Below are positions 14,326 through 24,719 of a DNA stretch of 41,987 nt, in pieces (position 1 is the first letter of the stretch; each line of letters opens with the position of its first letter). The position numbers and the translations under genes are program-made. Source of the stretch: Gammaproteobacteria bacterium. GTDB lineage: Bacteria; Pseudomonadota; Gammaproteobacteria; GCA-002705445; GCA-002716945. The notes under the pieces were generated by a model that had not been told where the DNA came from, ran no database searches, and saw only the letters and a program-made list of their open reading frames with translations. The DNA lies in assembly GCA_965656575.1 (NCBI GenBank), contig CBFHLA010000002.1:3817-45803 (forward strand), read 5' to 3'.

Positions 14326-15660
14326 CTACATTGTTTCTTTGAATTCTATAATTTTACCTATAGGTTGAGAAATGATGTCATCCTCTTGCATAACAACATT
14401 GCCTCTCACAATAGTGTGTGTTGGCCAACCTTTTACCTTCATACCATCATATGGTGTCCATTTACTCTTTGAACGTTGTTGATCGTTTGTAATAATCATT
14501 TCTTTATTCATATCTACAATTGTAAAGTCAGCATCATAACCTTCTTGAATTCTGCCTTTGCCAGAGATTTTATGAACCCTTTCTGGACCAGTACTCCATA
14601 AGCTAACAAGTTTACTTAAAGAAAGTTTGCCGTTATTTACATGGTTTAACATTATTGGAACCAACGTTTGTACACCAGGTGTGCCGCTTGGTGATTTAGG
14701 ATAAGATGCAGATTTCTCATCTAAAGTATGTGGGGCATGGTCTGATGCAATGATGTCAACTATATTATTATTGAGTGCATTCCATAAAGCTTCCTGATGA
14801 TATTTTTCTCTTATAGGAGGATTTTGTTGAGCAAGTGTTCCTAAATTTTCATAACATTCAGGGGCATTAAGTGTTAGGTGGTTTGCCAAAAGCTCGACAC
14901 TTGCTACATCTTTATTCCTTGCAAGAAACTCCATTTCTTCACTAGTGGTTATATGCAAAATATGAACTCTTCTTTTATATTTACGAGCAAGATTTACAAC
15001 TCTCGTGGTAGCAGATAAGCAACTTTCTGGTGAACGCCATTTGCAATGCATCGCAACATCGTTACTAGAGCCTAAGATAGATGCAAAATTATTCATCATA
15101 ATCATTTGATCTTCCGCGTGAACGGCAATCACACGTCTACCATTTGAAACAACTGATTCAACTTCCTCATCTGTTGCTGTCATCAAGTCGCCAGTGCTTG
15201 CGCCCATGAAAATCTTTATTCCACAGACTCCTTTGAGATTTTCCCATTCAGACAAGTTTTTAGATGTTCTCATGGTGCCACCTAAATAAAAAGCATAATC
15301 AGTCCATGCTTCTTTGGATGCTCTGCTTAATTTATCTTCAATTGTTTCAGGTGTGATAGTGAGTGGGTTTGTATTCGGCATTTCAAATATTGAAGTTACT
15401 CCACCTAAAACTGCAGCTAGCATTCCTGATGCAAGGGTCTCCTTGCCTTCTAGCCCAGGCTCACGAAAATGTACTTGAGAATCAATAACACCAGGCAGTA
15501 TTATTAAATTCTTACAATCAATTGTCTGCTCAGTATCATAATTTTTATCTGATATAAGTGATATTTTCTCATTTTGGACATAAACATTTGTAGAGACAAG
15601 TGTATTTTTGATCATTACACGACCATTTTTAAGACATAAACTATATGGATGATTTGACAT
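14326..15660 (-). CDS. pyrC: dihydroorotase (long, type I/allantoinase-like cyclic amidohydrolase)
   Basis: 444 aa with DSQVHFREPG, GIKIFMGASTGDL, AVHAED, ILHITT and ASDHAPH metal-ligand blocks. Confidence 0.75.
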   Translation of the reverse strand: MSNHPYSLCLKNGRVMIKNTLVSTNVYVQNEKISLISDKNYDTEQTIDCKNLIILPGVIDSQVHFREPGLEGKETLASGMLAAVLGGVTSIFEMPNTNPLTITPETIEDKLSRASKEAWTDYAFYLGGTMRTSKNLSEWENLKGVCGIKIFMGASTGDLMTATDEEVESVVSNGRRVIAVHAEDQMIMMNNFASILGSSNDVAMHCKWRSPESCLSATTRVVNLARKYKRRVHILHITTSEEMEFLARNKDVASVELLANHLTLNAPECYENLGTLAQQNPPIREKYHQEALWNALNNNIVDIIASDHAPHTLDEKSASYPKSPSGTPGVQTLVPIMLNHVNNGKLSLSKLVSLWSTGPERVHKISGKGRIQEGYDADFTIVDMNKEMIITNDQQRSKSKWTPYDGMKVKGWPTHTIVRGNVVMQEDDIISQPIGKIIEFKETM

Positions 15661-15713
15661 TCTATAAATATGCTATCATTTTAATATTAAATATGCATAA
15701 TACTCTTACACAT

Positions 15714-16097
15714 ATGCAGAAAATACTCGATAATTTTGGAATTACTGTCTCTTCAATATGTGCAATACACTGTATATTGTTACCATTGATGTTGATACTA
15801 TCACCATATATAGAATTAGCATTTTTTACATCTCATGAATTCCATGAAACTCTCCTTTACTTCATCCTGCCTACATCGTTACTTGCATTTATAATTGGTT
15901 GCAGAAAACACAATGATGACATAGTGAAACTTGGAGGTATATGTGCAATTTTTGTTCTACTTATCGCAATCAGCTTACATGATTTCAATGAAGCTTTATC
16001 AATCATACTAACTTTATTTGCTAGTACATTATTGATATTTACACATCTCAGAAATAGATCTTTATGCCTAAGTGAGCATTATTCTTGTCATAAATAG
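15714..16097 (+). CDS. MerC-domain small membrane protein
   Basis: MQKILDNFGITVSSICAIHCILLPLML plus three further TM segments. I prefer the ATG at 15714 (or 15693), because the track start at 15645 overlaps the divergent pyrC start. Confidence 0.55.
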   Translation: MQKILDNFGITVSSICAIHCILLPLMLILSPYIELAFFTSHEFHETLLYFILPTSLLAFIIGCRKHNDDIVKLGGICAIFVLLIAISLHDFNEALSIILTLFASTLLIFTHLRNRSLCLSEHYSCHK

Positions 16098-16121: not shown

Positions 16122-17009
16122 CTAATATTGAATAGGTGTTAACAATACTTGGAATGGTCCACTACCTACAGAATATGTTGCTGCTTTTGCAGGGCCTTCA
16201 TCACAAGAATCAGGTGCATTCTGCCATATAGATGAACCTGTACTTACATTAAAACTCATATTGAAGCCTCTAGTGTCTTTATCAACGACTACAGGTGTTC
16301 CAAATTCTTGCATACCAAACATTTTTGCACCAGCTGCGGCTTCTACTGCATTAGAAGCTAGTTCATTGTTAGCATTTAATAAGTATGCATACATAGTGTT
16401 TCCACTCGCGAATGATTCACTCGCAGTGCCTTCATAGTCATCGCCACCTACATTAAAGTTTGGAAGCGTTGCTGCAAATTCACCTGCTGTAGTCTGTGAT
16501 GTGCTACATGTCATAGATATACATGCACTCTCATCACCTGATGCATTTCTTGTTGAACAATAAATAGCACCTGGTTCAGCAGCTCCAACACCTTGCGAAT
16601 CTCCTCGCGCATCTGCGTCGAAAGTAATGCTTTGTTTGATCAGAAACTCATTTTTGAAAATCATTATGCCGTGAGTATAAATGCCCACTGGTGGTCTAGT
16701 AACATTTGATGTCAATGCAACATTTGATGATGTGGACGTAACTCGTACTACTTCACCAGCTGATGCATTCATAGTTTGAAAACAATTACTCAAATCATAT
16801 TCCACTCCATCTGCTGGCACTGTTGGCTGTGCAGTACAAAGCCATTTTTCATATAATGTAATGCCATAAGATTCAGGTTCAGACATACAGCTGTCTCCCA
16901 CTGGTAGTGTTGTTACTCCAGAGGTAACAGTACATGCATTAGCGTATACTTTAGACTGAAAACTAAATGACATAATTAATGAGAATGAAATTATAAATAA
17001 CTTTTTCAT
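16122..17009 (-). CDS. secreted hypothetical protein, 8 Cys, Ser/Thr/Gly/Ala/Asn-rich (candidate cargo of the adjacent barrel)
   Basis: Sec signal peptide MKKLFIISFSLIMSFSFQSKVYA|NA. It contains 8 cysteines and S/T tracts (RVTSTSSNVALTSNVT, TCSTSQTT). Its start lies 1 nt after the stop of the barrel gene. I recognise no family. Confidence 0.6.
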   Translation of the reverse strand: MKKLFIISFSLIMSFSFQSKVYANACTVTSGVTTLPVGDSCMSEPESYGITLYEKWLCTAQPTVPADGVEYDLSNCFQTMNASAGEVVRVTSTSSNVALTSNVTRPPVGIYTHGIMIFKNEFLIKQSITFDADARGDSQGVGAAEPGAIYCSTRNASGDESACISMTCSTSQTTAGEFAATLPNFNVGGDDYEGTASESFASGNTMYAYLLNANNELASNAVEAAAGAKMFGMQEFGTPVVVDKDTRGFNMSFNVSTGSSIWQNAPDSCDEGPAKAATYSVGSGPFQVLLTPIQY

Positions 17010-17010
17010 A

Positions 17011-17919
17011 CTAGAATCCAGATGCCGTTATAGCAAATCCGCCCCCACCTCTAACTTTAACAATATTATTTTCTCTTCTAACCTTTTCATACATTCTCTC
17101 AGAATTAACTTTACCAAAGGTGTATGCATTTTTTGAAACTGTGAATATATTTGGTCCCATTTTTCTCTCATTGCAGCACAGGATATAATTTAATTTAATA
17201 AATCCGTTATAAGAATTAGTAGTACTATCATCTTGCATACCAGTTTCAACAGATAGTCTTGATGTTGGCTCCATATATAAACTGAACATCTCACCATGCC
17301 TTATGTTTAATGTCTCATTATTCCATTGGTATTTTTTATAATATACTTTTGCCCATGGAAGATAAGGAAGTAGCGCACCTATTTCTGCATCATAACCACC
17401 CGCTGCAACTTCAGGAGCACCATTGACGTGATGGATTTCGGACATTGCCTCATACAAATTAATGTTAACATCGAAAACTGATGATTTCATTTCAAAACCC
17501 AAACCTGTTCTAGTATGACCTGTGTTAAATTCATGATCATAAAAAATATTTATACCATAGATACGGGTCATCTCAGAATTCATCGTCCTATATACAAGTC
17601 CAGTATTTAGAGTTTCATTACTATCAAAGGTTGAATATGATATTTGAGTTAATATTTTGTTGTACTCGTTACCAGTTAATTCAAAGAGTGAAATAGCTCT
17701 AAAAGTTGGTTTTGAATCTTCACCCGCACGTGTTTCAATTTCTATTAATCTGAGACTAGATAAATTATCTTTTGCCCAAGATTCAATAGTCGAATCTCCA
17801 TAGGAAAAAGCATTTTCAATTATATTTTGTTTAACTTGATTTAGTGCTTGACTCGCTTCACCAGCATAGCCCAGAGATGTCATCAAAATAAACGGTAACG
17901 CTAATAATTTTTTCCCCAT
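17011..17919 (-). CDS. inverse-autotransporter (intimin/invasin) beta-domain protein without passenger
   Basis: Signal peptide MGKKLLALPFILMTSLGYA|GEA. The blocks IYGINIFYDHEFNTGHTRTGLGFEMKSSVFDVNINLY, GYDAEIGALLPYLPWAKVYYKKYQW and MYEKVRRENNIVKV parallel the intimin beta-domain and linker as recalled. The protein ends ...GGGGFAITASGF, an OMP-like terminal Phe. Confidence 0.65.
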   Translation of the reverse strand: MGKKLLALPFILMTSLGYAGEASQALNQVKQNIIENAFSYGDSTIESWAKDNLSSLRLIEIETRAGEDSKPTFRAISLFELTGNEYNKILTQISYSTFDSNETLNTGLVYRTMNSEMTRIYGINIFYDHEFNTGHTRTGLGFEMKSSVFDVNINLYEAMSEIHHVNGAPEVAAGGYDAEIGALLPYLPWAKVYYKKYQWNNETLNIRHGEMFSLYMEPTSRLSVETGMQDDSTTNSYNGFIKLNYILCCNERKMGPNIFTVSKNAYTFGKVNSERMYEKVRRENNIVKVRGGGGFAITASGF

Positions 17920-17955
17920 TAGATGATAGTAATATAAATCAGTCTTATGTAAAGA

Positions 17956-18729
17956 CTATTGATCAACATTTTCCATGTTTTTTATGTTATCTAGGGCTGG
18001 TTTATATGTGCTATCTATTTCAAGAGCATGCTTAAACATTTTTTTAGCAGCGATATTGTCTTTAGTTGCATAGTATGCAATACCCAAATTATTGTATAAC
18101 TCTTTTGACGTTACATCCTTATTTAAAGCTTCTTCTAGTACTTCCACGCACTTTTTATACTTTGTATTCTTTAGATAATAATTAGAGATATTGATATAAG
18201 GCATGGGATCATTTGAAGTTAATTCCAAAACTTTTAAGTAATGCTTCTCTGCTTCGTTAGGATTAATATTGTTGTATATATTTGCGAGATTATTGTGGGC
18301 TACAGATGAGTTAGCATCTAAAGACAAAGCTTTTTTATAATTTTCTACCGCTTTTTCAAAATTTTTAAGATGTGAATAGATTACTCCTAAACTATAGAAT
18401 GACTGAAAGTTTTTTTTATCTAGCTTAATAGCTCTTTTATGTTCCTGTATTGCAAATTCGAGATTATTACTTTGATAAAGTATGTTTCCATAGTTGCTGT
18501 GGTAAACAGAAATTTCTGGTTGAAGTTCAATCGCATTGATTATGTGACTCCTAGCGTCATCTAGTTTATTTTCTACAAGGTAGATTAAAGACAATAAATG
18601 ATAAGCATCACTATTATTTTTATCATGGACTAAGATTTTATTATAAATAGATTTTGCATCATCTAGTTGATTTCTATTTTGAAGGTCCATAGCTTCTTTC
18701 ATTGCTTGATCTATTAAAAACTCAACCAT
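17956..18729 (-). CDS. tetratricopeptide-repeat protein (cytoplasmic, no signal peptide)
   Basis: 257 aa with about six consecutive 34-residue TPR units (for example AYHLLSLIYLVENKLDDARSHIINAIELQP and SFYSLGVIYSHLKNFEKAVENYKKALSLD). Overlaps the upstream gene by 8 nt. Confidence 0.8.
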   Translation of the reverse strand: MVEFLIDQAMKEAMDLQNRNQLDDAKSIYNKILVHDKNNSDAYHLLSLIYLVENKLDDARSHIINAIELQPEISVYHSNYGNILYQSNNLEFAIQEHKRAIKLDKKNFQSFYSLGVIYSHLKNFEKAVENYKKALSLDANSSVAHNNLANIYNNINPNEAEKHYLKVLELTSNDPMPYINISNYYLKNTKYKKCVEVLEEALNKDVTSKELYNNLGIAYYATKDNIAAKKMFKHALEIDSTYKPALDNIKNMENVDQ

Positions 18730-20146
18730 ACTTTTTCTCTTGAAGTTGTTCCTTTAATTTTATTATCACAGATTTCCAGTCGCCAGGAATTTCTTGCCTA
18801 AACATAATAACACTTTTATACCATGGTGATGTGTTTCTGTGTGTCAACTCCCATCTCCAATTTGGAACGCAGGGTAACATTAAGATTGTCTTTTTATTTA
18901 ATGCTCCAGCCATATGCGCAACTAGATGGTCAACAGTTATAACTAAATCTAAATTCGATATAATATTTGCAAGTTCATTTAAATCCGAATAGCTTCCTAG
19001 TGTTTGAAAAATGTGGGATTTATTATCTTGGGTGACGTAGGGGTCTAGACTGATTACATTGTGTTGGTCAGAAAATACTCCTTCAATTAACGTATGGCTT
19101 ATGCTTTCATCGTCATGCGCATTTGAATTTCTATCTGTCTCCAACACCAGACCAATGTTTAATTTTTCTGAAACATTGAAATTTAGATTAGTATTGATAA
19201 ATTCAATATATGGATACTCTTGATTCATCTCATTAGGGTTAGCTTCTAATACCTTCATCAAAGAGCTGATATGGACAAAATAATCATGTTCAGGGATATC
19301 ATTTACCGTAACAGTACTGTGTAACCATTTCTGAGCTGACATTAATGGCATTGCTTGGTCACTACACTGCAAGATAATCTGACAATCATCTTTAGCAAGC
19401 TCTCTTGCAAATCTTATAAAATTAATTAAATTTGCATCCGAACCTTCATCAACTATAAGTAATTTCTTATTTTGTAAACTCTGGCCAGTCCACTCTTTTT
19501 TAAAACCGTCGGTTGATTCTTTTGTAATCTTTTTTCGCCACTCATACTCGCGCCAACCATTTTTATAATCTCCAATTAATAAATAACATAGTCCAAGATT
19601 GAGATGAGCTTCAGCATAATCAGGCATTATTTCAATGCATTTAAGAAATGACTTTATTGATAAATCAAATTGTTTTTTTTCTTGATAAACAATACCTAAT
19701 AATAGATAAGCTGCAACATGATCGGGTGATAGTTCTATAGTTTTATAAAATGACGAGATAGCGTCATTATATTTCTTTATTTTTCTATATGACTCTCCCA
19801 AATAAAAATGTACTTGCGCAATTTTATCATTTAATGAAATTGCGCCCTTAAAAGCTTCAACTGATTTAACGTATTCTTTAGATGCGCTGTATGCACATCC
19901 TAAGGTTACATAATATCCAGGATTTTTATTATTTAATCTAATAGATTTATCTACTAATTTTATAGATTCGTCAAAGTCTTGATTGTAAAGTCTGATTGAT
20001 GACAATATATGATAGGCATCAGGATTAAGATCATCTTTAATAATTTCCTTGCAAATCGATTCTGCTTCAGAAAATTTGTTTTGACCCAAGAAATTTATTG
20101 CTTTGTTTAATTCTTGCTGAGTTTTATCTTTATTCTCATTACTCAT
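18722..20146 (-). CDS. TPR-repeat protein fused to a GT9 (heptosyltransferase)-like glycosyltransferase domain
   Basis: 474 aa. The N-terminal ~200 aa are TPR repeats. The C-terminal domain (KLLIVDEGSDANLINFIRFA ... DLVITVDHLVAHMAGALNKKTILMLPCVPNWRWELTHRNTSPWYKSVIMFRQ) matches the DxVxHLAGAxG...WRW...SPWY...FRQ pattern I associate with TPR-GT9 proteins. Confidence 0.6.
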   Translation of the reverse strand: MSNENKDKTQQELNKAINFLGQNKFSEAESICKEIIKDDLNPDAYHILSSIRLYNQDFDESIKLVDKSIRLNNKNPGYYVTLGCAYSASKEYVKSVEAFKGAISLNDKIAQVHFYLGESYRKIKKYNDAISSFYKTIELSPDHVAAYLLLGIVYQEKKQFDLSIKSFLKCIEIMPDYAEAHLNLGLCYLLIGDYKNGWREYEWRKKITKESTDGFKKEWTGQSLQNKKLLIVDEGSDANLINFIRFARELAKDDCQIILQCSDQAMPLMSAQKWLHSTVTVNDIPEHDYFVHISSLMKVLEANPNEMNQEYPYIEFINTNLNFNVSEKLNIGLVLETDRNSNAHDDESISHTLIEGVFSDQHNVISLDPYVTQDNKSHIFQTLGSYSDLNELANIISNLDLVITVDHLVAHMAGALNKKTILMLPCVPNWRWELTHRNTSPWYKSVIMFRQEIPGDWKSVIIKLKEQLQEKKYG

Positions 20147-20251: not shown

Positions 20252-20854
20252 TTATGGAGCGTAAGAGAATGGGCCTGAAAGTCCAACTCTGTCAGGTTTT
20301 GGACTCCAATTCTGTCCGAAATCTGTATAAGATTGTTTATTTGTTTTATTCACCTCAACTGGGAAGCCAGGGTTAATAGCTAATGGGTGGTATTCGCATT
20401 TTGCTACATTACCATTGCCATCTTCTACCGCATCCATATCCCACTCGCCAGCACCCTCTACTTTAAGAGTTTTTTTATTTCCTGATATATCACATGTAAT
20501 AGCTGCTTTTTTTACACCCATCACTTCACCAACAAGACTAGCTATTACACCTAAATGTCCGCCATGCTTACCGCCATACAGTTCCTCTAATGCGGCAGCT
20601 TGCTCATCAGTTGCATTTTCGTCTATGTATAGTGCAATTTTAAAACCGCCTTCAGTAAGTTGTGGACCAGGTGCATGTAACCAGATAGAAACTTTAAGTC
20701 CATCGAGTGTTACATCATTTAAGTGTCCCTTTTTTATATCCCAGACCAACATAGCCTCACAAAAACCTTCAGTAGGTGTTTGTAGGTATAGACAAGGACA
20801 CATAATATCGCAGTTGCAATTTTCTGCGTAATCTCCTTCTAAACTCCAGCTCAT
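20252..20854 (-). CDS. DUF1326 domain protein
   Basis: 200 aa with the N-terminal signature W.L.GDY.ENCNCDIMCPC. Confidence 0.65.
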   Translation of the reverse strand: MSWSLEGDYAENCNCDIMCPCLYLQTPTEGFCEAMLVWDIKKGHLNDVTLDGLKVSIWLHAPGPQLTEGGFKIALYIDENATDEQAAALEELYGGKHGGHLGVIASLVGEVMGVKKAAITCDISGNKKTLKVEGAGEWDMDAVEDGNGNVAKCEYHPLAINPGFPVEVNKTNKQSYTDFGQNWSPKPDRVGLSGPFSYAP

Positions 20855-21013: not shown

Positions 21014-22654
21014 TTGAACAAATCAGAGTTAGAACATTGGTATAGTGATAGCGTGCCGTGCAGATCAGCATGTCCTGCTGATACAGATATTCCTGGATAC
21101 CTAGAAGCGATATATCGTGGAGATTTTGAGTCAGCCTACAACATAAACTTCAATGATAATTTTTTTCCTGAAGTTCTTGGGAGAGTGTGTTCTAGACCAT
21201 GTGAAAAAGCATGTAGGCATGGAGTTAATGATAATGGCGATTCTGTATCAATTTGTTTTTCAAAAAGAGCTGCAGGCAAATATTCAAATAATAAACCTAA
21301 ACTTCAAAATAAACTTAAAGCAACGAGTAAAGATATACTCATTATAGGCGGAGGTGTTGCAGGTTTAGCTGCTGCTGCAGAATTAAGACGTTTTGGTCAC
21401 AAGGTGACAATGTATGAAAGACACAAATCGTTGGGCGGTATGCTCAATCAAGGAATACCCGTTTTTAGATTACCAAGAAAAATCATAGAAAAAGAAATTG
21501 AACAAATTATAAACCTTGGGATTAAGGTCAAACTAAACACATCTGTTTCAGATCAAGATGAAATAGAAATGCTTGCAAAAAAATTTGATGTAGTTGTCTG
21601 TGCAATGGGAACACTTAAGCCTAATCTTTTAGATGAAAAATTTAAAAAAAGTCTTTATGTAGAAGATGGACTAGATTTTTTATTAAGAGTTAACGAAAAG
21701 AATGAAAAATATGTTGGGCAAAATGTAATAGTCATAGGTGGTGGTTATACATCAATGGATTGTGCGAGAACAGCTCTTAGACTGGGTGCCAAAACTGTTA
21801 AGACATTTTATAGAAGAGAAGAAGGTGATTTAGAAATTCTTCCTGGTGAATTAGAGGAATTAATTAATGAAAAAGGTAAGATGGTATTCAGTGCTAGACC
21901 ATTCAGACTTATTGAAAACAAGAAAAAACTAAAATATCTTGAGTTAGTTAAAACCAAAACCTCGAAGCATAATTCAAAACTTATAGATATACCGAATAGT
22001 AAGTTTAAAATAAAAACTGATCATATAATTCTGGCCATAGGTCAGAAGCAAGAAATTAAAATAAAAAATTCATCTAAAAATATTTTCTATGCAGGCGATT
22101 TCAAACTAGGAGCTTCTACACTGATTAATGCAATTGGAGATGCCAAAAAAACTGCAGCAGATGTAAATCAATATTTAATGAAAAAAAATTATGACAAAAG
22201 TGATTATAGTATTAGCAAAAACGCTAAAACAAATAGATCTCTAAATAGAAACTATATACCTATTACAGAAATGCGACTGAGAGATATATCGAAAAGAACA
22301 TTTAAATCTGAAGTTGAGCTTGGATTCAATAAAACTGAAAGTAAAAATGAATCATCAAGATGTTACCTCTGCCATTATAAATTTGAAATTAATAATAGCT
22401 TATGTGTTCTATGTGATGAATGCTTATTAGTAAGACCTGTAAATGAATGTATCAAAGAAATATCATCAAAAACTACTGACTCAAAAGGCAGAGTAGAAGT
22501 TAATAAAATCGACCCTGGTAATTCTCACGGTATTTATCATGGTGAGTTATATATAGACCCTAAAGTATGTGTGAGATGTGGGGAATGTGAAAAAGCATGT
22601 CCTACAGGTGCTATTTCACTAACCAAAGTGAGTAAAATTAATGCGTCAACCTAA
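21014..22654 (+). CDS. GltD-like NAD(P)H:FAD/FeS oxidoreductase subunit with a C-terminal 2x[4Fe-4S] ferredoxin domain
   Basis: 546 aa from a TTG start. The N-terminal GltD-type cluster region reads CRSACPADTDIPGYL...VCSRPCEKACRHG. It has two Rossmann motifs (IIGGGVAGLAAAAEL and VIGGGYTSMDCA) and C-terminal CYLCHYK..CVLCDEC and CVRCGECEKACP motifs. Confidence 0.75.
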   Translation: MNKSELEHWYSDSVPCRSACPADTDIPGYLEAIYRGDFESAYNINFNDNFFPEVLGRVCSRPCEKACRHGVNDNGDSVSICFSKRAAGKYSNNKPKLQNKLKATSKDILIIGGGVAGLAAAAELRRFGHKVTMYERHKSLGGMLNQGIPVFRLPRKIIEKEIEQIINLGIKVKLNTSVSDQDEIEMLAKKFDVVVCAMGTLKPNLLDEKFKKSLYVEDGLDFLLRVNEKNEKYVGQNVIVIGGGYTSMDCARTALRLGAKTVKTFYRREEGDLEILPGELEELINEKGKMVFSARPFRLIENKKKLKYLELVKTKTSKHNSKLIDIPNSKFKIKTDHIILAIGQKQEIKIKNSSKNIFYAGDFKLGASTLINAIGDAKKTAADVNQYLMKKNYDKSDYSISKNAKTNRSLNRNYIPITEMRLRDISKRTFKSEVELGFNKTESKNESSRCYLCHYKFEINNSLCVLCDECLLVRPVNECIKEISSKTTDSKGRVEVNKIDPGNSHGIYHGELYIDPKVCVRCGECEKACPTGAISLTKVSKINAST

Positions 22655-24719
22655 GTTTAAAAATATAAATGTCACGTGCCCGCATGATTGCCCTGATACC
22701 TGTTCTCTAGTAGTTACTGTTGATAAAACATCTGGCAAAGCAGTTAAGTTAAAAGGAAATGATAAACATCCCATTACCAAAGGGTTTCTATGCAATAAGG
22801 TAAATCATTACTTAGACTTGGTTTACAACAAGAATAGAGTTTTATATCCACATGTAAGAATTGGACCAAAAGGACAGAAAGGTAAATTCAAAAGAGTTTC
22901 TTGGGATTATGCTTTAAAACTCATAACAAAAAATTTAAATGAAAATATTAAAAAATATGGCCCTGATTCCATACAGCCTTATTCATATTCCGGAACACTC
23001 GGAATGTTGGGCTACTGGGGAATGTCAGAAAGATTTTGGAATAAATTAGGAGCAGCCCGTTTAGGCAGAACGATATGTATTGCAGCAGCATCCACTGCAG
23101 GGATATATACTTATGGAGCCGCGTGTGGTCCTGCAATTGATGAAGTTCCCAAAAATGATTACATAATATTGTGGGGTACAAATGTTGCATCAACGCATGT
23201 ACACATGGTTCCGTTTCTAGAGGAAGCTAAAAAAAACGGAGCTAAAATTGTTTGTATAGATCCAAGAGAAACCCGAACAAGTATCATGAGTAATTGGCAC
23301 ATCCAGCCTAAACCGGGAACTGATTCTGCATTAGCACTTGGTATCATGAATGAAATAGTTAAAAACAATTTACATGACAAATCATTTTTAAAAAAACATA
23401 CAACTGGTCATGAAGAGTTTCTAAAAAAAGAATTGCCTAAATATACTCTCAGTAAAGTTTCTAAGATCACTGGGATAAAACAATCTGAGATAAAACAGTT
23501 AGCTCATGAATACGCAAAAGCCAAAAGATCATACATAAGACCTAATTATGGGCTTAATAGGCATCGAAACGGCGGCATGATGACCAGAACAATAATGTTA
23601 CTCCCAGCAATTACTGGGGCTTGGAAATATAAAGAGTCTGGTTGTTTTGTTGGCTCTATTGAAGAAATGTGGAATGTTGATTTACAAAAACTTCAAAGAC
23701 CAGATTTGCTAGATGGTAAAGCTCCCAGATCTATAAACATGGTTCAGATAGGAAATGCCTTAAATGATAAAAAACTTAGTCCACCTATTAAGCATTTATT
23801 TGTTTGGAATTCTGATGTTGCCAATTGCACTCCAGATAGCAGTAATGTGCGAAAAGGCCTTCAAAGAAAAGATTTATTTACAGTAGTGCATGATACTTTT
23901 TGGACAGATAGTTGCATGTATGCTGATGTTGTTCTTCCAGCTGACACCCAATTGGAACACACAGACCTTCATGCACCTTACGGGCATTATTATTTCAGTT
24001 TGACCCAACAAGCGATCAATCCATTAGGTGAGAGTAAATCTAACCAAGATCTGTTTAGAGAATTAGCAAAGTACATGGGTTACAAGGAAGCATGCTTCAA
24101 AGAAACAGATGAGAAAATGATAAAAAACATGATTGATGCAAAGCATAATCCACTGTTTAAAGGAGTTAGTTATGAAAAACTCAAAAAAAATGGATGGGTC
24201 AAAGGTGATGTAAATAATCCAAGAAGAAACTATCTTAAGAAAGGCTGGCCTACTAAAGATAAGAAGATACAAATCTATTCAGAAGATACAAAAAAAATCG
24301 GTCTAGGCCCATATCCATCTTACACAGAAGAATTTAAAAAATCAGAAATTAAGAAAAAATATCCTATTCAAATATTAAGTCCTGCAACGCATCAATTTAT
24401 AGGGAATTCATTTGTGCCAGTTGAAAGACTAAGAAATATGGCATCTCGACCAACTATTGAAATTTCATCCGCAGATGCCAAGAAAAGAAAAATTAAAGAT
24501 GGAGATTTATGTAAAGTGTTTAATGATGTAGGTGAAACTTATGCCAATGCAATTATTAAAGATACAATGCTTGAAGGTGTGGCATCTACACAAAAACAAT
24601 ACAGAGGTTCATTAGTTAAGAATGGTCTTAATGCTAATGCATTAAACTCACAAGAACTTACAGATATGGGAGATGGCCCAATTTTCTATACGGTGATGGC
24701 TCAAATCAAAAAAGTTTAA
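22641..24719 (+). CDS. cytoplasmic molybdopterin (bis-MGD) oxidoreductase catalytic subunit, substrate unknown
   Basis: 692 aa with an N-terminal [4Fe-4S] motif C-x3-C-x3-C...C (TCPHDCPDTCS...FLCNK) and no twin-arginine signal. The probable Mo-ligand region is RTICIAAASTAGIYTYG. Overlaps the upstream gene by 14 nt. Confidence 0.75.
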   Translation: MRQPKFKNINVTCPHDCPDTCSLVVTVDKTSGKAVKLKGNDKHPITKGFLCNKVNHYLDLVYNKNRVLYPHVRIGPKGQKGKFKRVSWDYALKLITKNLNENIKKYGPDSIQPYSYSGTLGMLGYWGMSERFWNKLGAARLGRTICIAAASTAGIYTYGAACGPAIDEVPKNDYIILWGTNVASTHVHMVPFLEEAKKNGAKIVCIDPRETRTSIMSNWHIQPKPGTDSALALGIMNEIVKNNLHDKSFLKKHTTGHEEFLKKELPKYTLSKVSKITGIKQSEIKQLAHEYAKAKRSYIRPNYGLNRHRNGGMMTRTIMLLPAITGAWKYKESGCFVGSIEEMWNVDLQKLQRPDLLDGKAPRSINMVQIGNALNDKKLSPPIKHLFVWNSDVANCTPDSSNVRKGLQRKDLFTVVHDTFWTDSCMYADVVLPADTQLEHTDLHAPYGHYYFSLTQQAINPLGESKSNQDLFRELAKYMGYKEACFKETDEKMIKNMIDAKHNPLFKGVSYEKLKKNGWVKGDVNNPRRNYLKKGWPTKDKKIQIYSEDTKKIGLGPYPSYTEEFKKSEIKKKYPIQILSPATHQFIGNSFVPVERLRNMASRPTIEISSADAKKRKIKDGDLCKVFNDVGETYANAIIKDTMLEGVASTQKQYRGSLVKNGLNANALNSQELTDMGDGPIFYTVMAQIKKV

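What the first reader, a model, noticed from the sequence alone, without database searches (positions are those of the whole stretch)
16122..17919. Passenger-less inverse-autotransporter barrel followed 1 nt later by a separately exported Cys-rich protein (possible split type Ve system)
The 302-aa product of 17011..17919 has a Sec signal peptide (MGKKLLALPFILMTSLGYA|GEA). The rest lines up by eye, block for block, with the intimin/invasin beta-domain as I recall it:
- ours YGINIFYDHEFNTGHTRTGLGFEMKSSVFDVNINLY vs intimin LGYNVFIDQDFSGDNTRLGIGGEYWRDYFKSSVNGYF;
- ours GYDAEIGALLPYLPWAKVYYKKYQW vs intimin GFDIRFNGYLPSYPALGAKLMYEQYYG;
- ours MYEKVRRENNIVKV vs intimin RYDLVQRNNNIILEY.

In classical type Ve proteins the chain continues after that last block, which is the linker threading the pore, into a long Ig-like/lectin passenger. 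Here the ORF stops 14 residues later (RGGGGFAITASGF*). One nucleotide downstream a new ORF (16122..17009) begins with its own signal peptide (MKKLFIISFSLIMSFSFQSKVYA|NA). It encodes a 295-aa protein with 8 Cys that is rich in Ser/Thr/Gly/Ala/Asn, and I recognise no family for it.

Barrel and putative surface cargo are therefore separate Sec substrates. I do not know this arrangement for inverse autotransporters. The second signal peptide argues against a trivial nonsense-split pseudogene.
Basis: partly seen in the sequence, partly recalled or inferred. Interest (0 to 1): 0.75.

Follow-up and report, generated by a model that had tools for sequence, protein, structure and literature searches.

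The report
Passenger-less intimin-type barrel with docked partner
Two tightly coupled genes in a marine gammaproteobacterium encode a minimal intimin-type outer-membrane barrel with no adhesin attached and a separately exported protein of unknown fold; the pair recurs in many bacteria and is probably a two-piece way of putting a protein on the cell surface, related to the known Salmonella ZirT/ZirS system but built differently.

Summary
ORF 17011..17919(-) is a true inverse-autotransporter (IAT) barrel: Pfam IAT_beta E=4.8e-27, and a family profile hits the invasin and intimin barrel structures at E=3e-28 and 6e-25. It ends 12 residues after the pore linker. One nucleotide later a 295-aa protein with its own signal peptide begins.

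This is neither a pseudogene nor an assembly artefact. In 68 of 73 informative metagenome partner ORFs a ~280-325-aa barrel lies 0-3 nt upstream, and no fused ORF was seen. Both genes are under purifying selection (dN/dS about 0.05 and 0.19).

The partner family is large (718 clusters at 50% identity). It has no Pfam model, and a confident AF2 model (pLDDT 88.7) has no PDB fold match.

The arrangement is not unprecedented. ZirT/ZirS and the "two-partner inverse autotransporters" of Heinz et al. 2016 are published.

New here: there is no Ig passenger at all, the partner is not Ig-like, and the barrel's C-terminal strand (…FAITASGF) is conserved. The same kind of strand ends small lipoproteins that replace the barrel upstream of partner homologues in 4 of 11 lineages sampled.

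Best reading: the anchor presents a docking strand for the partner. Export through the barrel is inferred, not shown.

Verdict: new variant of a known kind, interest 0.6.

The parts
17011..17919 (-). Gene for the 302-aa passenger-less inverse-autotransporter barrel (stop codon included)
   Evidence: ORF. Pfam IAT_beta E=4.8e-27. 237 homologues, those listed 270-314 aa. dN/dS 0.05-0.06.
17863..17919 (-). Predicted Sec signal peptide of the barrel (residues 1-19, MGKKLLALPFILMTSLGYA|GEA)
   Evidence: Read from the sequence. Hydrophobic core LLALPFILMT. Conserved in homologues. SignalP was not run.
17068..17832 (-). IAT_beta domain (residues 30-284): 12-stranded barrel plus the start of the linker
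   Evidence: Pfam match over residues 30-284. Family profile aligns to nearly the whole invasin and intimin barrel chains.
17050..17094 (-). Pore linker MYEKVRRENNIVKVR (residues 276-290). [quoted passage not shown]
   Evidence: Alignment. V280, R282, N284 and I286 are invariant in 25 diverse short barrels. Intimin residue roles from PMC13078405.
17014..17049 (-). C-terminal tail GGGG-FAITASGF (residues 291-302): a 4-Gly connector plus a conserved terminal strand, the proposed docking strand
   Evidence: Tail pattern is conserved across barrels that are only about 30% identical, and G301 is nearly invariant. A similar strand ends the lipoprotein anchors.
17007..17013 (-). Junction TAG-T-ATG: barrel stop, 1 nt, partner start (translational coupling)
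   Evidence: Gap distribution in 68 loci is mostly 0-3 nt.
16122..17009 (-). Gene for the 295-aa partner protein (stop codon included)
   Evidence: ORF. Family of 718 clusters at 50% identity. dN/dS 0.18-0.20.
16941..17009 (-). Predicted Sec signal peptide of the partner (residues 1-23, MKKLFIISFSLIMSFSFQSKVYA|NA)
   Evidence: Read from the sequence. Signal-peptide-like N-termini are present throughout the family.
16125..16940 (-). Mature partner (residues 24-295): acidic all-beta protein with three conserved closely spaced Cys pairs and motifs TRPPxGxYTHG and GSGPF
   Evidence: Alignments. AF2 model pLDDT 88.7, pTM 0.85. No PDB or BFVD fold match.
17926..17953 (-). Weak sigma-70-like promoter match just upstream of the barrel gene (TTTACA-16-TACTAT)
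   Evidence: 9 of 12 matches only, and such sites are no more frequent than in shuffled sequence, so this is a hint, not evidence.

Best explanation
The two genes form one conserved functional module, a minimal 'two-partner' type Ve system.

The first gene makes an outer-membrane anchor: a 12-stranded inverse-autotransporter barrel with its linker threaded through the pore, as in intimin. As a result a 4-glycine connector and an 8-residue C-terminal strand (FAITASGF-COOH) emerge on the cell surface, at the position where the first Ig domain of a classical passenger would start.

The second gene is translationally coupled to the first. It makes a separately Sec-exported, acidic, all-beta 272-aa protein of a fold with no match in the PDB.

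Proposed mechanism: the partner is held on the anchor by pairing with the terminal strand (beta-strand augmentation or complementation). In the barrel version, the barrel provides the route across the outer membrane, probably while it is still engaged with BAM. ZirT does this for ZirS.

Shown here:
- barrel identity and linker conservation;
- strict, ancient adjacency of the two genes;
- purifying selection on both genes;
- tail conservation;
- replacement of the barrel by lipoproteins that carry a similar tail.

Inferred:
- surface exposure of the tail, by homology with the intimin and invasin barrel structures;
- tail-partner docking;
- the route across the outer membrane.
For: **Barrel identity**
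- Pfam IAT_beta E=4.8e-27.
- Profile against invasin 4e1t and intimin 4e1s, E=3e-28 and 6e-25, over nearly the whole chains including the linker.
- Linker residues V280, R282, N284 and I286 are invariant in 25 diverse short barrels.

**The module is real**
- 68 of 73 informative partner ORFs in 80 metagenome loci have an IAT barrel directly upstream, mostly with a 0-3 nt gap. The other 5 are second copies or fragments lying behind a first partner.
- All 9 loci from the genome scan show the same gene order, in unrelated neighbourhoods. They are labelled as Gammaproteobacteria, Chlorobiaceae, MarineAlpha5 and Bdellovibrionales MAGs.
- Barrel and partner divergence are correlated, r=0.71.
- dN/dS is 0.05-0.06 for the barrel and 0.18-0.20 for the partner.

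**The tail matters**
- The phi-x-phi-x-A-(S/G)-G-F-COOH pattern is kept across barrels that are only about 30% identical.
- In 4 of 11 diverse partner lineages the gene 1-14 nt upstream is not a barrel. It is a lipoprotein with a Gly/Ser/Pro linker and a similar C-terminus...FTGTFAGY...FSVGVQGF...YSSTVTGI, and one with a PKD domain ending ...FNVTATGY.
- A PSSM built from barrel tails ranks these four at empirical p = 0.002 to 0.03 each.
- No IAT_beta gene lies within 4 kb of the lipoprotein-type loci L102 and L103.

**Hints of an extracellular location**
- Intimin mapping places residues 286-290 in the sheet at the extracellular opening and the tail beyond it.
- P0248 fuses three cadherin-like domains in front of a partner domain and still sits behind a passenger-less IAT.
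- One lipoprotein anchor carries a PKD domain.
- The three conserved Cys pairs are 15-18 residues apart. From my own knowledge, not from a tool result: Leyton et al. 2011 found that such closely spaced pairs are tolerated in type V substrates.
- The partner evolves 3-4 times faster than the barrel at nonsynonymous sites.

**Precedent**
- ZirS is Sec-dependent and is secreted only when ZirT is present, even in E. coli K-12.
- A two-partner IAT model has been published.
Against: - Tail-partner contact is therefore untested.
- The AF2 monomer of the partner is confident along its whole length. There is no obvious missing strand waiting to be complemented.
- Lipoprotein anchors usually face the periplasm. 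That fits a periplasmic complex as well as a surface one.
- The window's partner has an extra, lineage-specific Cys pair (163 and 269) 106 residues apart. If it is oxidised in the periplasm, it would hinder passage through a 12-stranded barrel whose pore is already occupied by the linker.
- No barrel-partner fusion ('Rosetta stone') was seen among the 150 representatives listed or in 113 loci.
- The lipoprotein variant rests on four lineages, and one of them is a truncated ORF.
- Partner homology could not be established for the downstream genes of L014 and L017.
Confidence: 0.5

Rival explanations
1. Pure ZirTS-like secretion. The barrel is a translocator and the partner is released into the medium. 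The conserved tail only stabilises the barrel, extending the small extracellular sheet, and does not hold the partner.
For: ZirT-dependent release of ZirS into culture supernatant. In intimin, the strand at the end of the linker is needed for protein stability. The partner model looks self-contained.
Against: The strand needed for stability in intimin corresponds to residues 286-290, not to the tail beyond it. Lipoproteins with no barrel to stabilise carry the same kind of tail directly upstream of partner homologues.
Confidence: 0.2
2. Periplasmic complex. The partner never crosses the outer membrane. It binds the anchor (barrel or lipoprotein) on the periplasmic side, for example as a structural or envelope-tethering protein.
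For: Lipoprotein anchors with long flexible linkers are typical of periplasm-facing lipoproteins. A long-range Cys pair is present in the window's partner. The 12-stranded pore is plugged by its own linker.
Against: The linker residues that line the pore in intimin are invariant here. The passenger-less intimin and invasin constructs that were crystallised have the linker traversing the lumen. That would put the tail outside. Cadherin-like and PKD domains fused to the partner or the anchor are typical of surface proteins. The partner evolves fast.
Confidence: 0.2
3. Two unrelated proteins that merely share an operon: a stand-alone barrel (a porin-like or structural outer-membrane protein) and an independent secreted or periplasmic protein.
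For: No direct interaction evidence. The partner has no recognisable family.
Against: Adjacency is kept in 68 of 73 informative cases, and across distant taxa in unrelated neighbourhoods, with 0-3 nt spacing and correlated divergence. When the barrel is absent, its place is taken by a protein with a similar C-terminus.
Confidence: 0.05
4. A conventional intimin-like gene broken by a nonsense or frameshift mutation, or by an assembly error.
For: The stop lies exactly where a passenger would begin.
Against: The same stop and restart occur in dozens of independent contigs. The partner has its own start codon and signal peptide in another frame. Both ORFs are under purifying selection. The downstream protein is not Ig-like. 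The listed barrel homologues are 270-314 aa.
Confidence: 0.01

Closest known systems
ZirT/ZirS(/ZirU) of Salmonella and the 'two-partner inverse autotransporters' of Heinz et al. 2016 (also SinH/SinI, Yfr4/Rat-like)
   Same: An IAT-family outer-membrane protein is followed by one or more co-encoded proteins that have their own Sec signal and no barrel. For ZirS, secretion depends on ZirT. Barrel-partner-partner arrangements also occur here (L028, L033).
   Different: ZirT, SinH and Yfr4 carry Ig-superfamily passenger domains, and their partners resemble those domains. The published model uses the Big domains as substrate receptors. Here the barrel has only a 12-residue tail, so that model cannot apply. 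The partner is a different fold with no PDB match. The hosts are free-living marine bacteria, and a lipoprotein can replace the barrel.
Classical inverse autotransporters (intimin, invasin, FdeC; type Ve)
   Same: Signal peptide, IAT_beta barrel, conserved pore linker and the strand at the extracellular opening.
   Different: No covalently attached passenger and no LysM or other periplasmic domain. The chain ends where domain D00 would start.
[quoted passage not shown] 2016
   Same: [quoted passage not shown]
   Different: The main text of that paper, as read, describes no specific partner family, conserved tail motif or lipoprotein alternative. Its supplementary tables were not available.
Two-partner secretion, type Vb (FhaC/FHA)
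   Same: The logic is the same: a separate outer-membrane transporter and a Sec-exported cargo, encoded side by side.
   Different: There is no Omp85 barrel, no POTRA domains and no TPS domain; none gave a Pfam hit.
Donor-strand complementation in chaperone-usher pili and strand exchange in Bacteroidia type V pili (mechanistic analogy only)
   Same: A short terminal strand of one protein completing or extending the beta-sheet of another is the proposed docking principle. Type V pili also use lipoprotein anchors. This comparison rests on my own knowledge.
   Different: No sequence or fold relationship was found; a FimA hit was noise (E=0.95, low TM-score). No chaperone, usher or protease gene lies nearby.

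Membership tests
Inverse autotransporter (type Ve) family | N-terminal Sec signal peptide | tested here: met
   A basic n-region, hydrophobic core and AxA-like site are seen in the sequence and conserved in homologues. SignalP itself was not run.
Inverse autotransporter (type Ve) family | IAT_beta (PF11924) 12-stranded barrel homologous to intimin and invasin | tested here: met
   Pfam E=4.8e-27, 95.7 bits against a cutoff of 22.3. Profile against PDB 4e1t and 4e1s, E=3e-28 and 6e-25. The strand number was not modelled here.
Inverse autotransporter (type Ve) family | Conserved linker that runs back through the barrel lumen | tested here: met
   YEKVRRENNIV aligns with intimin RYDLVQRNNNII. V280, R282, N284 and I286 are invariant. 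Threading itself is inferred by homology.
Inverse autotransporter (type Ve) family | C-terminal passenger on the same polypeptide (Ig-like, lectin or other) | tested here: not met
   Only 12 residues follow the linker strand. The listed homologues are 270-314 aa.
Two-partner inverse autotransporter (ZirTS-like) | IAT-family outer-membrane protein with a co-encoded downstream protein that has its own Sec signal and no barrel | tested here: met
   (68 of 73 adjacency).
Two-partner inverse autotransporter (ZirTS-like) | The partner shares Ig-superfamily domains with the translocator's own passenger | tested here: not met
   The translocator has no passenger. The partner has no Pfam hit, no PDB sequence hit and no fold hit.
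Two-partner inverse autotransporter (ZirTS-like) | Secretion of the partner depends on the translocator | not testable with these tools
   This needs expression with and without the barrel, followed by fractionation or surface shaving.
Type Vb two-partner secretion | Omp85/POTRA TpsB transporter and a TPS domain in the cargo | tested here: not met
   No such Pfam or NCBIfam hits for either protein.
Bacterial lipoprotein (for the partner itself) | Lipobox directly before Cys+1 | tested here: not met
   In the window the Cys is preceded by A-N-A. Family members have AxA-type SPase I sites 1-3 residues before the Cys. This was judged by eye against the PROSITE-type lipobox.

The most novel reading that the evidence does not exclude
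The conserved unit is not the barrel. It is a terminal docking strand (flexible linker plus phi-x-phi-x-A-x-G-F/Y-COOH) that can be mounted on different membrane anchors: a passenger-less IAT barrel, an IAT with an N-terminal extension, a 48-aa lipoprotein, or a PKD lipoprotein. This strand non-covalently captures a large, uncharacterised family of proteins with a fold that has no PDB match. That would be a new, anchor-independent way of attaching proteins to the Gram-negative envelope. In it the inverse-autotransporter barrel has been reduced to a device that hands one beta-strand to the outside and lets a trans-encoded protein fold onto it (autotransport in trans).
Probability: 0.35. Interest if true: 0.8.

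Novelty: new variant of a known kind. Interest (0 to 1): 0.6.

Why it matters
How an inverse-autotransporter barrel can serve a protein that is not covalently attached to it is an open question. Only ZirT/ZirS has been studied, and the published model needs Ig domains on the translocator. This module is the minimal case: barrel, linker and 12 residues. It is abundant in marine metagenomes and comes with a natural control, because lipoproteins carrying a similar tail replace the barrel in some lineages. That makes the question directly testable with tail deletion or swapping, complex prediction and surface shaving. The module also defines a large unannotated protein family (718 clusters at 50% identity) that is likely to sit on the surface of abundant marine bacteria. 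Such proteins are relevant to interactions with phages, grazers and particles.

Tried and rejected
- **First AF2 model.** The model from 22 sequences was poor (pLDDT 66). Its Foldseek matches were noise and were discarded.
- **Fold searches.** Foldseek of the good model against PDB and BFVD gave nothing below E=0.15 and TM-scores of 0.22 or less.
- **Sequence searches for the partner.** The partner profile against PDB sequences gave no hit even at E<=10. Pfam gave nothing for the window partner (E<=1), for six partner-position ORFs from distant loci (E<=1) or for seven representatives (E<=0.1), apart from the cadherin-like domains of P0248 and two noise-level hits. The NCBIfam FimH hit (E=0.017) was judged to be noise.
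- **Loci search.** The search for related loci with the 123-sequence alignment failed because no stretch was conserved enough. It was redone with the 22-sequence alignment.
- **Viral contigs.** Two scans found no relatives.
- **Fused proteins.** None was found. The only long hit, P0248, is a cadherin-like plus partner-domain protein, not a barrel fusion.
- **Distant downstream genes.** hhalign could not establish homology of the L014 and L017 downstream proteins to the partner family (probability 32% and 4%).
- **Promoter and terminator scan.** Uninformative.
- **Heinz et al. supplements.** Not held, so I could not check whether their operon table lists this partner.
- **TPR genes.** The two upstream TPR genes were considered as part of the system and rejected. 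They are syntenic only in close relatives and absent from distant loci.
Full report
**1. Observation**

The two ORFs are exactly as described. The barrel ORF is 17011..17919(-), 302 aa. The partner ORF is 16122..17009(-), 295 aa. They are separated by TAG, one nucleotide, then ATG, and lie in different frames.

Both proteins begin with a basic, hydrophobic, AxA-type signal peptide. SignalP was not available.

The partner has 8 Cys. Its mature form is 47% S/T/G/A/N with pI 4.15. It matches no Pfam or NCBIfam model.

**2. The barrel**

- Pfam IAT_beta matches residues 30-284 at E=4.8e-27, covering profile positions 19-279 of 279.
- A profile of 25 diverse short barrels aligns to almost the whole crystallised chains at E=3e-28 and 6e-25. 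This includes the linker: YEKVRRENNIV against intimin RYDLVQRNNNII.

I combined this alignment with the residue roles described for intimin (PMC13078405):
- window residues 286-290 (IVKVR) correspond to the strand (intimin 444-448) that forms the small sheet at the extracellular opening;
- GGGG (291-294) corresponds to the four-residue connector;
- FAITASGF (295-302) lies where domain D00 would begin.

The protein is therefore essentially the crystallised barrel construct plus one extra strand. There is no LysM domain or other periplasmic domain.

**3. Not a broken gene**

- The listed barrel homologues are 270-314 aa.
- The partner profile was used to fetch 80 metagenome loci. Of 73 informative partner ORFs, 68 have an IAT barrel directly upstream on the same strand.
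- Gaps range from -41 to +5 nt and are mostly 0-3 nt.
- The five exceptions are second copies or fragments lying behind a first partner.
- No ORF matches both profiles.
- dN/dS against close relatives is 0.05-0.06 for the barrel and 0.18-0.20 for the partner.

**4. Breadth of the module**

- The genome scan found the same barrel-then-exported-protein order in MAGs labelled Gammaproteobacteria, Chlorobiaceae, MarineAlpha5 and Bdellovibrionales, in unrelated neighbourhoods.
- The window itself resembles uncultured marine Gammaproteobacteria MAGs, with 33% GC.
- Local synteny (DUF1326, two TPR genes, barrel, partner, MerC, dihydroorotase, deaminase, PEP carboxylase) holds only among close relatives.
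- The partner profile detects 718 representative clusters at 50% identity (417 at E<=1e-10). Nearly all are stand-alone proteins of 260-340 aa.
- Barrel and partner divergence are correlated (r=0.71). The partner diverges faster at short range.
- Public annotation calls the barrel 'adhesin/invasin' and the partner 'hypothetical protein'.

**5. The partner**

- With a 123-sequence alignment, AF2 gives a confident all-beta model with long strands (pLDDT 88.7, pTM 0.85).
- Foldseek finds nothing significant in the PDB or BFVD. The profile finds no PDB sequence.
- It is therefore not an Ig, lectin or other recognisable passenger domain.
- Six Cys are conserved, as three pairs spaced 15-18 residues apart. 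A fourth pair (163 and 269) is specific to the window's lineage.
- The one multi-domain family member, P0248, has three cadherin-like domains in front of a C-terminal partner domain. It lies directly behind a 690-aa IAT that has a long N-terminal extension but again only a short tail...KFSVTASAI.

**6. The tail and the lipoprotein anchors**

Across barrels that share only about 30% identity, the last eight residues keep a phi-x-phi-x-A-(S/G)-G-F pattern behind a short flexible segment.

I looked up the contexts of eleven diverse partner lineages.
- Seven have a barrel upstream: the window clade plus L098, L100, L105, L107, L112 and L113.
- Four instead have a lipoprotein 1-14 nt upstream:
  - a 48-aa protein...LSAAGC|GSKTTTAPVSKAPFTGTFAGY (L104);
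  - ...LSLASC|GGGSSSSGGGSSGFSVGVQGF (L099, truncated by the contig end);
  - ...LLSAC|GGGGDPAPSSSSGTAPSSYSSTVTGI (L108);
  - a 163-aa lipoprotein with one PKD domain ending ...SFNVTATGY (L110).

No IAT_beta gene lies within 4 kb of L102 and L103. A PSSM made from 37 unique barrel tails ranks these four C-termini at empirical p = 0.002, 0.003, 0.013 and 0.028 against 1,563 other ORF ends.

This is the most informative new result. What is conserved next to the partner is a membrane anchor carrying this terminal strand, not a barrel as such.

**7. Mechanism**

The best-supported reading is an anchor-plus-docked-partner module.
- By homology with intimin and invasin, the barrel threads its linker through the pore and presents the strand outside the cell.
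- The partner, exported by Sec, is captured on that strand.
- For the barrel version the partner must cross the outer membrane. The only experimental precedent is ZirT-dependent secretion of ZirS (PMC2270342).
- A free partner terminus sharing the pore, or a BamA-barrel hybrid pore, with the linker would be sterically equivalent to the hairpin intermediate of classical type Ve secretion. This step is inference.

Points against:
- there is no complex model;
- the partner model looks self-contained;
- lipoprotein anchors could face the periplasm;
- the window's partner has a long-range Cys pair.

A purely secretory ZirTS-like role and a periplasmic complex therefore remain real rivals.

**8. Comparison with what is known**

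- Heinz et al. [quoted passage not shown] - In those systems the translocator has Ig-superfamily domains, the partners resemble them, and the model uses those domains as receptors. None of that applies here.

The window's system passes the barrel, signal-peptide and linker tests for type Ve and fails the passenger test. It passes the gene-arrangement test for ZirTS-like systems and fails the shared-Ig-domain test.

**9. Verdict**

- It is a new variant of a known kind.
- It comes with an uncharacterised partner family and an unexpected clue: a similar tail on lipoprotein anchors.
- Interest is 0.6.
- The most novel reading that the evidence does not exclude is an anchor-independent strand-docking system (probability about 0.35).

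Noticed in passing
window 17956-20146 (-): Two TPR-repeat proteins lie directly upstream of the barrel. The 474-aa one has a weak GT9/heptosyltransferase-like C-terminal region (Pfam E=9e-5). They are syntenic with the module only in close relatives (L001, L005-L008, L010, L011) and absent from distant loci.
   Followed up: partly
window 17173-17178 (barrel residues 248-249): A vicinal Cys-Cys (…LCCNER…) is conserved in the window's barrel clade but not in distant short barrels. Its role is unknown.
   Followed up: no
window 16203-16205 and 16521-16523 (partner Cys269 and Cys163): An extra Cys pair, together with a 12-residue insertion (PDSCDEGPAKAA), occurs only in the window and its closest relatives. 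If the two are bonded, this is a 106-residue loop, which is awkward for passage through a narrow pore.
   Followed up: partly
L028, L033, L023; L062, L067, L074, L095, L097: Some contigs carry a barrel followed by two partner genes, like ZirT-ZirS-ZirU. Others carry tandem repeats of the whole barrel-partner module.
   Followed up: partly
L098 (1516-2730, 10993-11535) and L108 (31-1017): The cadherin-carrying variant and one lipoprotein-anchored variant sit next to a tyrosine-integrase-like gene. L098 also has a resolvase. This hints that the module can travel on mobile elements.
   Followed up: no
L012 5846-6514; L011 4962-5889 and 5959: In two MAGs the module looks damaged: an in-frame stop in the L012 downstream gene, and a frameshifted barrel plus a truncated partner start in L011. 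These may be pseudogenes or assembly errors.
   Followed up: partly
L012 and L014 downstream genes: A shorter (~230 aa) downstream protein type shares only the P-x-x-Y-K-V-T...LC motif with the main partner family (hhalign probability 32%). It goes with a different barrel tail (…V(G/A)RGT). It may be a second partner class that covaries with the tail.
   Followed up: partly
window 15645-16097 (+): A MerC-family membrane protein is encoded convergently just downstream of the partner gene. It is conserved in that position in close relatives.
   Followed up: no
window 20252-20854 (-) and 21014-24719 (+): A DUF1326 protein lies next to a divergently transcribed Fe-S/FAD oxidoreductase (546 aa) and a 692-aa ORF. 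In the syntenic loci L005-L008 the equivalent 692-aa product carries molybdopterin-oxidoreductase Pfam domains. The block is syntenic in relatives and is not part of the module.
   Followed up: no
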